Source: Escherichia coli (GTDB lineage: Bacteria; Pseudomonadota; Gammaproteobacteria; Enterobacterales; Enterobacteriaceae). From it: a stretch of DNA of 64,000 nucleotides. Shown here one piece after another: positions 55,025 to 58,000 of the stretch. Made by a program: the position numbers. Positions within the stretch are counted from its first letter, which is position 1, and each line of letters opens with the position of its first letter. Location: NCBI RefSeq assembly GCF_965641715.1, contig NZ_OZ282453.1; one strand, written 5' to 3'.

Positions 55025-58000
55025 TAATGATGTGCCACATCCGGCAGGGTATGCCGGATGTGGCGTATGCTGATAAGACGCGTCAGCGTCGCATCAGGCA
55101 ACCGGCTCGGACGTTGGATGTCGGATGCGGCGTAACCGCCTTATCCGACCTGGCGGTTGCAGCACTTCACAGCGGTGTAGGCCTGATAAGACGCGCCAGC
55201 GTCGCATCAGGCAACCGGCTCGGGCGTTAGATGTCGGATGCGGCGTAACCGCCTTATCCGACCTGGCGGTTGCAGCACTTCACAACGGTGTAGGCCTGAT
55301 AAGACGCGCCAGCGTCGCATCAGGCAACCGGCCAGGGCGTTAGATGTCGGATGCGGCGTAACCGCTTTATCCAACCTACGGGGTGCCGCACTTCACAGCA
55401 GTTTAGCGAACTACCGCGTTCTCAATCTTCTCTTCCGCCTTCCAGATGCGGTATTTCACATCCACATTGTCTGGCGTATACACCACGATCGGCAGCTTGC
55501 TGTTGTAACGCAGCATTCCGGTATCGCCGAGATATGCAGTGACAAATTTCTTCTCTTTCTTGCCATCCGGGCAGGCCATCATCGTGGAAACCGGCGAGCT
55601 AACTTTATCAAAGACATAATAATCATAGCCCCAGCCTTCCAGCGTTTTGCTTTCCAGCTTCCCACCGAGACGATGCAAATTGCAATCGACTTCCAGCGTC
55701 TGACCGATTAACAGTTCTACTTTCAGGGTAGATTCATCTTCTTGCGGGGTTAACTGAATCACCTGACGCTTCATGCCTTTTTCAGCTTGTGGATAAGGCG
55801 CGATTTTTTCCAGTGGCTGGACGCTCTCTGCCGCCCAGGCGGAAGTGGTGGCGAAAGCGGCAAACAATACTGCAGGTAGAATGGTCTTCATTTTTTGCTT
55901 TCCTTCTTCATTTATAGGTTTGCACCGATGATGTCGCTGAAGGTTAACATATTCATCAGATTTATTAATTTGCTTTATGAATAACTTAAAGAATATTAAG
56001 ACAATTTTACCTGCTCTTTTAGTGTTAAATTCTGATGAGAGAGCAAACCAGCAGAAATATCTCTGGTGAATTAATCGCTATATAAATATATTTATAACCA
56101 TTTGAAATGTGAGCAAAAGCCCGTTTTTGCCACGCTTCCCGCCACTCTTTTGATCCTGCTACAGGTTTTACCTCGATCGGGGTATGCATCTTTGACACAT
56201 CCTTTAATATCTTAGCGGCTATAAAAATGGCTTATTAATTATGCGGTTTATTTGGTCGCTCTCAATTTTCAGAGCGCGTTAATGATGGAAGGTCAATGTG
56301 AAGATTGATGCATCCCGTCGGGGCATACTCACTGGTCGCTGGCGCAAAGCCAGTAACGGTATCCGTCCGCCCTGGTCCGGTGATGAATCTCATTTTCTGA
56401 CCCATTGCACCCGCTGCGACGCCTGTATTAATGCTTGTGAAAACAACATCCTGCAACGCGGCGCGGGCGGCTATCCGAGCGTTAATTTCAAAAATAACGA
56501 GTGCAGCTTCTGTTACGCCTGCGCGCAGGCTTGCCCCGAATCGCTATTTTCTCCGCGCCACACCAGGGCCTGGGATTTGCAGTTCACCATTGGGGACGCG
56601 TGCCTGGCGTATCAGTCAGTTGAATGCCGCCGCTGTCAGGATAGCTGTGAGCCAATGGCAATTATCTTTCGCCCGACGCTCTCCGGGATCTACCAGCCGC
56701 AACTTAATAGCCAACTTTGCAACGGATGTGGAGCATGTGCAGCCAGCTGTCCGGTATCAGCCATAACTGCGGAGTATCTCCATGCACACTAACTGGCAAG
56801 TTTGCAGCCTGGTCGTGCAGGCCAAAAGCGAACGAATTTCAGACATCAGCACCCAACTGAACGCCTTTCCCGGCTGTGAAGTTGCTGTCAGCGACGCGCC
56901 GAGCGGTCAGTTGATTGTGGTGGTGGAAGCAGAAGACAGCGAAACGCTGATCCAAACCATTGAGTCAGTACGCAACGTAGAGGGCGTGCTGGCGGTGTCG
57001 CTGGTTTATCACCAGCAGGAAGAGCAAGGTGAGGAAACACCATGAAACTCAGTCGTCGTAGCTTTATGAAAGCTAACGCCGTTGCGGCCGCTGCGGCGGC
57101 TGCCGGTCTCAGCGTGCCGGGCGTTGCCCGCGCCGTTGTTGGTCAGCAGGAAGCCATTAAATGGGATAAAGCGCCGTGCCGTTTCTGCGGTACTGGTTGC
57201 GGCGTTCTGGTCGGAACGCAGCAGGGGCGTGTGGTGGCCTGTCAGGGCGACCCGGACGCACCGGTTAACCGTGGCCTGAACTGCATTAAGGGCTATTTCC
57301 TGCCCAAGATCATGTACGGTAAAGACCGTTTGACGCAGCCGCTGCTGCGTATGAAAAACGGTAAATATGACAAAGAAGGCGAATTTACCCCAATCACCTG
57401 GGATCAGGCCTTCGATGTGATGGAAGAGAAATTCAAAACCGCCCTGAAAGAAAAAGGGCCGGAATCGATCGGTATGTTCGGTTCTGGTCAGTGGACTATC
57501 TGGGAAGGTTATGCCGCGTCCAAACTGTTTAAAGCGGGCTTCCGTTCGAACAACATCGACCCGAACGCGCGTCACTGTATGGCGTCGGCAGTAGTTGGCT
57601 TTATGCGTACCTTTGGTATGGATGAGCCGATGGGCTGCTATGACGACATCGAGCAGGCTGACGCGTTTGTGCTGTGGGGCGCAAACATGGCGGAAATGCA
57701 CCCGATCCTCTGGTCGCGCATCACTAACCGTCGTCTCTCTAACCAGAACGTCACCGTGGCGGTGCTTTCTACCTACCAGCATCGTAGCTTCGAGCTGGCG
57801 GATAACGGCATCATCTTTACGCCGCAATCTGACCTGGTGATCCTGAACTACATCGCCAACTATATCATTCAAAACAATGCGATAAATCAGGACTTCTTTA
57901 GCAAACACGTTAACCTGCGCAAAGGTGCGACGGACATCGGCTACGGTTTACGTCCGACCCATCCGCTGGAAAAAGCAGCGAAGAATCCGGGTTCTGATGC

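What the first reader, a model, noticed from the sequence alone, without database searches (positions are those of the whole stretch)
56100..56300. napF promoter with FNR-like half-site pair 20 bp upstream of a NarP/NarL 7-2-7 site
TTGAT-cctg-CTACA (56150..56163) followed by TACCTCG-AT-CGGGGTA (56169..56184) reproduces the arrangement known for anaerobic, nitrate-responsive nap control. The napF start codon itself is GTG, with an out-of-frame ATG 2 nt upstream.
Basis: partly seen in the sequence, partly recalled or inferred. Interest (0 to 1): 0.3.

Follow-up and report, generated by a model that had tools for sequence, protein, structure and literature searches.

The report
Known E. coli napF promoter
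This is the well-studied control region of the E. coli periplasmic nitrate reductase (nap) operon, with its catalogued FNR and NarP/NarL binding sites in their published arrangement, so it is correct but ordinary.

Summary
TTGATcctgCTACA lies at 56150-56163 and TACCTCG-AT-CGGGGTA at 56169-56184, with centres 20 bp apart. napF starts at GTG 56298, and an out-of-frame ATG lies 2 nt upstream. The window is E. coli, closest to O157:H7, and the eco-napF spacer is 99% identical to K-12.

Both motifs are the database-curated FNR and NarL/NarP sites of napF (b2208). The heptamer positions published for K-12 (-49/-40) put the main start site at 56221. An FNR ChIP-seq peak in K-12 lies 6-13 bp from the site centre. 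The module is conserved without indels in E. albertii, Citrobacter and Leclercia.

Three caveats apply.
- The window carries a C-to-T change in the distal heptamer. This is a minority allele (about 8% of complete E. coli genomes) and stays within the consensus.

Verdict: interpretation supported, already known, low interest.

The parts
56150..56163 (.). FNR binding site TTGATCCTGCTACA. The left half-site is perfect and the right half-site is degenerate. Inferred centre -64.5 relative to P1.
   Evidence: Sequence. Identical to the curated FNR site for b2208. K-12 ChIP-seq peak lies 6-13 bp away. TTGAT is invariant in 8/8 sequences from 3 genera. Weak matrix score, ln p -5.25.
56169..56184 (.). 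NarP/NarL 7-2-7 site TACCTCG-AT-CGGGGTA. Heptamer centres are 56172 and 56181 (= -49 and -40); site centre is -44.5.
   Evidence: Sequence. Curated NarL heptamer pair for b2208, flagged 7-2-7'. Position -40 to -49 (PMC4549865). 13/16 columns invariant across genera. Rank 3 of 63,985 by NarL matrix.
56173..56173 (.). Single-base difference from K-12 inside the promoter-distal heptamer: T here, C in K-12. It breaks the perfect 16-bp palindrome but still fits TACYYMT.
   Evidence: Alignment. Exact matches to the 66-mer around the sites: window version 442 genomes, K-12 version 4930 genomes. T is also present in E. albertii and Leclercia. The matrix score is 0.9 bit lower than for the K-12 allele.
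56208..56213 (+). Inferred -10 hexamer TATCTT of the main promoter P1.
   Evidence: Lies at -13 to -8 of the inferred start. Invariant in all 8 aligned sequences. Assignment to P1 is an inference from geometry plus recalled literature (Stewart et al. 2003, not readable here).
56205..56210 (+). Inferred -10 hexamer TAATAT of the overlapping minor promoter P2, whose start is about 3 nt upstream of P1.
   Evidence: Sequence. Its first T is not conserved in Citrobacter or Leclercia. The existence of P2 is taken from the title of PMID 13129959 (cited) and from my recollection of its abstract.
56221..56221 (+). Inferred P1 transcription start (+1).
   Evidence: Computed from the published heptamer positions -49/-40. 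Corresponds to NC_000913.3 position 2303574, minus strand. Not measured here.
56221..56297 (+). napF 5' leader (77 nt), with Shine-Dalgarno GGAAGG at 56287-56292.
   Evidence: Sequence. No unusual RNA structure, z = -0.46. No Rfam match. The SD-to-start zone is 73% invariant.
56296..56301 (+). Out-of-frame ATG followed directly by TGA (ATGTGA), overlapping the GTG start.
   Evidence: Sequence. The SD is 3 nt from the ATG and 5 nt from the GTG.
56298..56792 (+). napF coding sequence, GTG start, 164 aa.
   Evidence: ORF list. RefSeq annotation in K-12 and O157:H7. TIGR00402 napF equivalog, 248 bits. Citrobacter and Leclercia use an ATG one codon downstream.
56076..56099 (.). ModE-like palindrome CGCTATATAAATATATTTATAACC, centre 56087.5 (= -133.5).
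   Evidence: Sequence. Conserved in Escherichia and Citrobacter. ModE activation of nap is stated in PMC8139620 and ModE is listed as a napF regulator. The -133.5 position is my recollection of McNicholas & Gunsalus 2002, not verified here.
56108..56123 (.). CRP-like site TGTGA-GCAAAA-GCCCG, centre about -105.5. The left half is good and the right half is poor.
   Evidence: Sequence. The block TTGAAATGTGAGCAAAAGC is conserved in Escherichia and Citrobacter. A Crp site upstream of the FNR site is recalled from Stewart et al. 2009 (cited); its identity with this motif is not verified.
56025..56189 (-). Annotated small ORF yojO (54 aa), lying over the ModE, CRP, FNR and NarP sites.
   Evidence: RefSeq annotation. 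The ORF is cut to 15-20 aa in E. albertii, Citrobacter and Leclercia. No NCBIfam family.
56238..56265 (-). Sigma-70 promoter-like element TTGAGA-16-CATAAT inside the napF leader, facing yojO.
   Evidence: Promoter scan, 10/12 matches. The same hexamer pair is listed as a constitutive RpoD promoter for yojO by genomic SELEX (PMC3946193).

Best explanation
This is the control region of the E. coli napFDAGHBC (periplasmic nitrate reductase) operon. Without oxygen, an FNR dimer carrying its [4Fe-4S] cluster binds TTGATCCTGCTACA, centred 64.5 bp upstream of the main start site P1 (inferred at 56221). With nitrate or nitrite, phosphorylated NarP binds as a dimer to the inverted heptamer pair centred at -44.5. 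This site abuts the weak -35 region, and NarP activates P1 together with FNR. Phosphorylated NarL binds the same 7-2-7 site and displaces NarP, so expression peaks at low nitrate and falls at high nitrate. Upstream ModE and Crp sites add molybdate and carbon-source inputs. Translation of napF starts at GTG 56298. Shown here: the sequence identity of both sites with the curated K-12 sites, their conservation, and their fit to published positions and ChIP data. Taken from the literature: the protein-binding and activation steps.
For: - Origin of the locus: the eco-napF spacer is 99% identical to K-12 MG1655, and the locus is present in 5421 of 5426 complete E. coli genomes.
- Curated sites: the FNR 14-mer equals the curated FNR site for b2208. 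The heptamers equal the curated NarL 7-2-7' pair apart from one base.
- Published positions: the -40 to -49 position of the napF 7-2-7 site gives +1 = 56221. That places an invariant TATCTT at -13 to -8 and the FNR centre at -64.5.
[quoted passage not shown] Converted to NC_000913.3 it is 2303645-2303651, against a site centre of 2303638.5.
- Regulation: FNR plus NarP-P activation and NarL-P antagonism are stated in PMC9262595, PMC3688515 and PMC8139620.
- Conservation: in 8 sequences from Escherichia, Citrobacter and Leclercia the TTGAT half-site is 5/5 invariant, the 7-2-7 site 13/16 and the -10 zone 9/10. There is no indel between the sites. Far-upstream columns are 8% invariant.
- Symmetry: changes in the 7-2-7 site keep the dyad symmetry, for example TACCCCA-AT-TGGGGTA in C. 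youngae.
- Chance: the composite arises in 3 of 300 simulated windows.
Against: - The FNR site is a poor matrix match. Its right half matches only 2 of 5 consensus bases, ln p is -5.25, six positions in the same spacer score higher, and it falls below Myers et al.'s prediction threshold.
- The ChIP-seq peak was called by only one of three ChIP-seq peak callers, plus ChIP-chip.
- -64.5 is an unconventional distance for an FNR activator.
- The window's distal heptamer differs from K-12 at one base, and nobody has tested that allele.
- The primary footprinting and start-site papers (Darwin & Stewart 1995; Darwin et al. 1998; Stewart et al. 2003) could not be read here. The -64.5 value, the P1/P2 assignment and the mechanism therefore rest on secondary sources, arithmetic and my recollection.
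Confidence: 0.95

Rival explanations
1. The conservation of this stretch reflects the protein-coding gene yojO on the opposite strand, and the apparent binding motifs are incidental to its codons.
For: RefSeq annotates yojO (54 aa) across 56025-56189 on the minus strand, covering both sites. A sigma-70 promoter faces it.
Against: The ORF is interrupted after 15-20 codons in E. albertii, Citrobacter and Leclercia, and its start codon is lost in C. werkmanii. Conservation comes in blocks that match the binding sites rather than the codon pattern. The protein matches no NCBIfam family.
Confidence: 0.02
2. The TTGAT...CTACA motif is a chance match, and FNR acts on napF through a different site in the spacer or only indirectly.
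For: The matrix score is weak (ln p -5.25). Six positions in the spacer score higher, for example ATGATGTCGCTGAA at 55928 and TTGGTCGCTCTCAA at 56252. The ChIP peak was called by only some algorithms.
Against: The alternative sites lie about 110 and 220 bp from the ChIP peak centre, whereas this one lies 6-13 bp away. This exact sequence is the curated FNR site. TTGAT and its 20-bp spacing to the 7-2-7 site are invariant across three genera.
Confidence: 0.03
3. The 7-2-7 site in this strain works mainly as a NarL operator (repression) rather than a NarP activator site, because the C-to-T change shifts the balance between the two regulators.
For: The window allele differs from K-12 at position 5 of the distal heptamer and scores 0.9 bit lower on a NarL-derived matrix. 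It is a minority allele in E. coli.
Against: T at that position fits the TACYYMT consensus. The same T occurs in E. albertii and Leclercia, so it appears to be tolerated variation. No data point to a functional shift.
Confidence: 0.05

Closest known systems
E. coli K-12 napF (aeg-46.5) operon control region: FNR at -64.5, NarP/NarL 7-2-7 at -44.5, overlapping promoters P1 and P2 (Darwin & Stewart 1995; Darwin et al. 1998; Stewart et al. 2003)
   Same: The same locus (eco-yojO-napF), 99% identical over the 409-bp spacer. The FNR 14-mer is identical. The 7-2-7 site is identical at 15 of 16 bases, with the same spacing, the same -10 region and the same GTG start.
   Different: One base in the distal heptamer (56173 T against C in K-12). 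This removes the perfect palindrome TACCCCGATCGGGGTA and is shared by about 8% of complete E. coli genomes.
Other FNR plus NarL/NarP co-regulated promoters with 7-2-7 sites (nirB, nrfA, fdnG, yeaR)
   Same: An inverted heptamer pair with a 2-bp spacer, bound by NarL and NarP dimers and working with FNR.
   Different: As I recall, at nirB and nrfA FNR sits at -41.5 with the 7-2-7 site further upstream. At napF the order is reversed: the response regulator is next to the -35 region and FNR is one position further upstream. The napF FNR site is also far weaker by matrix score than those of nirB (ln p -16.5) or fdnG (-12.9).
Haemophilus influenzae and other gammaproteobacterial nap promoters
   Same: Comparative genomics predicts FNR and NarP control of napF operons in Yersinia, Pasteurellaceae and Vibrionaceae (PMC1805755).
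   Different: Those promoters were not aligned here. Their site positions differ according to Stewart & Bledsoe 2005, which is cited but could not be read.

Membership tests
E. coli napF operon control region | Lies between eco/yojO and napF, upstream of napFDAGH..., with sequence identity to the K-12 region | tested here: met
   Gene order mqo-eco-yojO-napF-napD-napA-napG. 99% identity to MG1655. NapF matches the TIGR00402 equivalog.
FNR binding site | Match to TTGAT-N4-ATCAA, or a significant matrix score | tested here: inconclusive
   7 of 10 consensus bases: left half 5/5, right half 2/5. Matrix score -1.0 bit, ln p -5.25, with 468 window positions as good. Published PatSer ln p is -5.37, below the -10.75 prediction threshold.
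FNR binding site | FNR occupancy in vivo at this sequence | tested here: met
   Literature check: a ChIP-seq (MOSAiCS) and ChIP-chip peak at napF/yojO in K-12, 6-13 bp from the centre of the identical 14-mer. The sequence is curated as the FNR site of b2208. It was not measured in this strain.
FNR binding site | Conservation of the site and its register in orthologous promoters | tested here: met
   TTGAT is invariant in 8/8 sequences, the right half is invariant at 3 of 5 columns, and there are no indels up to the 7-2-7 site.
NarL/NarP 7-2-7 site | Two inverted TACYYMT heptamers separated by exactly 2 bp | tested here: met
   TACCTCG-AT-CGGGGTA matches 6 of 7 bases in each heptamer. NarL heptamer matrix built without napF: 10.6 bits, rank 3 of 63,985 positions.
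NarL/NarP 7-2-7 site | Documented as a NarL/NarP target at napF, at -49/-40 | tested here: met
   Curated heptamer pair for b2208, flagged 7-2-7'. '-40 to -49 for napF' (PMC4549865). napF is named among the four genes with a reported 7-2-7' structure.
NarL/NarP 7-2-7 site | Binding of NarP-P and NarL-P to the allele present in this window (T at 56173) | not testable with these tools
   Only the K-12 allele (C) is covered by the literature seen here. The T allele fits the consensus and also occurs in E. albertii and Leclercia.
Mapped napF promoter P1/P2 | Transcription start at the position implied by the site coordinates | not testable with these tools
   +1 = 56221 is computed from the published -49/-40 positions. 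The invariant TATCTT at -13 to -8 is consistent with it. The primary mapping paper is not held.
GTG-initiated napF | In-frame GTG preceded by a Shine-Dalgarno sequence, with no in-frame ATG alternative | tested here: met
   GGAAGG lies 5 nt upstream of GTG 56298. The ATG at 56296 is out of frame and followed by TGA. RefSeq uses the same start. No N-terminal protein evidence was examined.

The most novel reading that the evidence does not exclude
The C-to-T change at 56173 in the promoter-distal heptamer may alter the competition between NarP-P and NarL-P. About 8% of complete E. coli genomes carry it, including the closest O157:H7 match. If so, it would shift the nitrate concentration at which Nap is expressed in that lineage. 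The constitutive antisense promoter in the napF leader might add a further effect.
Probability: 0.08. Interest if true: 0.3.

Novelty: already known. Interest (0 to 1): 0.05.

Why it matters
It matters little as a discovery. The napF control region has been dissected since 1995, and both sites are in curated databases.

Its value is as a calibration case. An experimentally established FNR site can score near background in a matrix scan. Evidence from arrangement, conservation and ChIP outweighs the motif score. A refutation rule of the form 'no matrix hit means no site' would give a false negative here.

Tried and rejected
- Reading the primary papers failed. These were Stewart et al. 2003, Darwin et al. 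1998, Stewart et al. 2009, Stewart & Bledsoe 2005 and Studholme & Pau 2003. None is held.
- Text searches for 'napF' with '64.5' or '44.5' returned only chemistry papers on NaPF6.
- The first yojO search returned mostly Lake Yojoa papers.
- The supplement of PMC9262595, wanted for the primers that define -85/+19, is not held.
- Consensus-only scans were uninformative alone: 332 against 237 expected for FNR, 2 against 2.35 for 7-2-7.
No Salmonella, Klebsiella or Yersinia were recovered, so the footprint covers three genera.
- Rfam found nothing in the promoter or leader, and the leader fold is unremarkable.
- Two readings were rejected: yojO coding constraint as the cause of conservation, and higher-scoring FNR-like 14-mers elsewhere in the spacer as the real site, because they lie too far from the ChIP peak.

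Full report
**What is in the sequence.** Reading 55700-56700 confirms the finding exactly.
- TTGAT-CCTG-CTACA lies at 56150-56163.
- TACCTCG-AT-CGGGGTA lies at 56169-56184.
- The centres are 56156.5 and 56176.5. The '20 bp' is therefore centre to centre, and the edges are 5 bp apart.
- An ATG at 56296-56298 overlaps the GTG at 56298-56300 and is followed immediately by TGA, so it can only make a start-stop.
- The GTG opens a 164-aa ORF. A GGAAGG Shine-Dalgarno sequence lies 5 nt upstream of the GTG and only 3 nt from the ATG.

**Where it comes from.**
- The 509 bp around the site match 5421 of 5426 complete E. coli genomes. The best match is an O157:H7 strain at 99.8%.
- RefSeq annotation gives the order mqo, eco, yojO, napF, napD, napA, napG, with napF starting at the same GTG.
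- The protein matches the NapF equivalog TIGR00402 at 248 bits.
- The eco-napF spacer is 99% identical to K-12 MG1655.

**Chance.** Neither motif is remarkable alone.

| Test | Result |
|---|---|
| TTGATNNNNATCAA, up to 3 mismatches | 332 hits, 237 expected |
| FNR matrix (63 ChIP-bound sites, Myers et al. Table S6) | -1.0 bit, ln p = -5.25; 468 window positions as good; rank 7 in its own spacer |
| TACYYMTNNAKRRGTA, up to 2 mismatches | 2 hits, 2.35 expected |
| NarL heptamer matrix (70 curated heptamers, napF pair left out) | 10.6 bits; rank 3 of 63,985; p = 8e-5; about 5 expected per 64 kb |
| Both motifs at this spacing | 3 of 300 simulated windows |

The evidence therefore lies in the arrangement, the position and the conservation, not in either motif score.

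**Identity with the known sites.**
- The supplements of PMC2718512 reproduce curated binding sites. For b2208 (napF) the FNR entry is CTCTTTTGATCCTGCTACAGGTTT.
- The NarL entries are GGTTTTACCCCGATCGG (forward TACCCCG) and CCGATCGGGGTATGCAT (reverse), flagged as a 7-2-7' pair.
- The main text of that paper names napF among the four genes with a reported 7-2-7' structure.
- PMC4549865 places the napF 7-2-7 site at -40 to -49.

If those numbers are the heptamer centres (56181 and 56172), then +1 is 56221. The 7-2-7 centre is then -44.5 and the FNR centre -64.5. These are the values I recall from Stewart et al. 2003, which could not be read here. With that start:
- TATCTT (56208-56213) sits at -13 to -8.
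- TAATAT (56205-56210) has the same geometry relative to a start 3 nt upstream. This fits the 'dual overlapping promoters' of that paper's title (cited).
- The palindrome CGCTATATAAATATATTTATAACC is centred at -133.5. That is where I recall the ModE site of McNicholas & Gunsalus 2002.

**In vivo binding.**
- Myers et al. (PMC3688515) report an FNR peak at napF/yojO, at 2301669 (Table S5) or 2301675 (Table 2), in older K-12 coordinates.
- I calibrated the coordinate offset with their apbE site, which gave about 1976-1978 bp.
- The peak then lies at 2303645-2303651. The 14-mer occupies 2303632-2303645, so the peak is 6-13 bp from the site centre.
- Their PatSer ln p for this peak is -5.37, almost the same as my -5.25. 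It is far below their prediction threshold of -10.75, and napF is absent from the part of their predicted-site list read here (part 1 of 2, which runs past the napF coordinate).
- The higher-scoring FNR-like 14-mers in the spacer (55928 and 56252) lie about 220 and 110 bp from the peak.

**Conservation.** I aligned 331 bp of each non-E. coli locus (ending 13 nt into napF) with the same stretch of the window and K-12 and counted invariant columns.

| Region | Invariant columns |
|---|---|
| TTGAT (FNR left half) | 5 of 5 |
| FNR right half | 3 of 5 |
| 7-2-7 site | 13 of 16 |
| -10 zone | 9 of 10 |
| Far-upstream spacer | 8% |

- There is no indel anywhere between the FNR site and the -10 region.
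- Variation in the 7-2-7 site is confined to heptamer positions 5 and 7. Where it occurs it tends to keep the dyad symmetry, as in TACCCCA-AT-TGGGGTA.
- This pattern is expected for sites bound by dimers at fixed helical register.

**The overlapping ORF.**
- yojO (56025-56189, minus strand) covers all the sites.
- It is cut to 15-20 codons outside E. coli and loses its start codon in C. werkmanii.
- It matches no NCBIfam family.
- Coding constraint therefore does not explain the conservation.

**Mechanism.** The regulation below comes from the literature; the sequence facts above were shown here.
[quoted passage not shown] Expression therefore peaks at low nitrate (PMC9262595; PMC3688515; PMC8139620).
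- ModE activates and IscR represses.
- A Crp site upstream of the FNR site is something I recall from Stewart et al. 2009 (cited). The conserved TGTGA-N6-GCCCG at 56108-56123 is a candidate, not verified.

**Difference from K-12.**
- Position 56173 is T in the window and C in K-12. K-12's perfect palindrome TACCCCGATCGGGGTA becomes TACCTCGATCGGGGTA.
- Exact matches to the 66-mer around the sites number 442 genomes for the window allele and 4930 for the K-12 allele.
- T still fits TACYYMT, costs 0.9 bit on the NarL matrix, and is also found in E. albertii and Leclercia.
- It is most likely neutral, but it has not been tested.

**Verdict.** This is the known napF promoter, so novelty is 'already known' and interest is low. 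The useful lesson is that the FNR site is established experimentally yet invisible to ordinary matrix thresholds.

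Noticed in passing
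window 56238-56265, minus strand: A sigma-70 promoter-like element TTGAGA-16-CATAAT (10/12 matches) lies inside the napF leader and points towards yojO and the napF regulatory sites. The same hexamer pair is listed as a constitutive RpoD promoter for yojO in a genomic SELEX study (PMC3946193). Its transcript would start about 10 nt downstream of the napF P1 start on the other strand, so the two could interfere.
   Followed up: partly
window 56025-56189, minus strand: The annotated small gene yojO (54 aa) overlaps the ModE, CRP-like, FNR and NarP sites. The ORF is intact only in E. coli and is cut to 15-20 codons in E. albertii, Citrobacter and Leclercia. It is probably not a conserved protein-coding gene. 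The 56173 polymorphism changes its residue 6 (Gly in K-12, Glu here).
   Followed up: yes
window 55068-55376: Three tandem copies of a REP-type element match Rfam naRNA4 (RF02564) above the gathering score, between mqo and eco. The mqo-eco gap is 375 bp here and 714 bp in K-12, so the copy number differs between strains.
   Followed up: partly
window 56173: A C/T polymorphism lies inside the NarP/NarL site. The window allele (T) is in 442 complete E. coli genomes and the K-12 allele (C) in 4930.
   Followed up: partly
window 56296-56301; Citrobacter and Leclercia loci L005-L009 around position 1201: ATGTGA forms a start-stop overlapping the napF GTG. In Citrobacter and Leclercia the GTG is replaced by GTC, and NapF starts at an ATG one codon downstream. 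The upstream ATG is kept in Citrobacter.
   Followed up: partly
window 56076-56123: Two further conserved blocks lie upstream of the FNR site. One is a ModE-like palindrome centred at -133.5. The other is TTGAAATGTGAGCAAAAGC, which contains a CRP-like TGTGA half-site centred near -105.5. Both are conserved in Escherichia and Citrobacter but not in Leclercia.
   Followed up: partly
window 56192-56197: A perfect TTGACA hexamer sits between the 7-2-7 site and the -10 region, but no -10 element lies at a usable spacing. It is not conserved in Citrobacter (TCTAACA), whereas the adjacent ACACATCC is invariant in all eight sequences and has no assigned function.
   Followed up: no
window 48496-48509: The best FNR matrix hit in the window (TTGATATCGAACAA, 13.0 bits) corresponds to the predicted but ChIP-negative FNR site near apbE in Myers et al. 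Table S6. It contrasts with the weak-scoring but bound napF site.
   Followed up: partly
napF mRNA (window 56221 onwards): A review (PMC8139620) notes a RIL-seq interaction between the sRNA ArcZ and napF mRNA. The pairing site was not looked for here.
   Followed up: no
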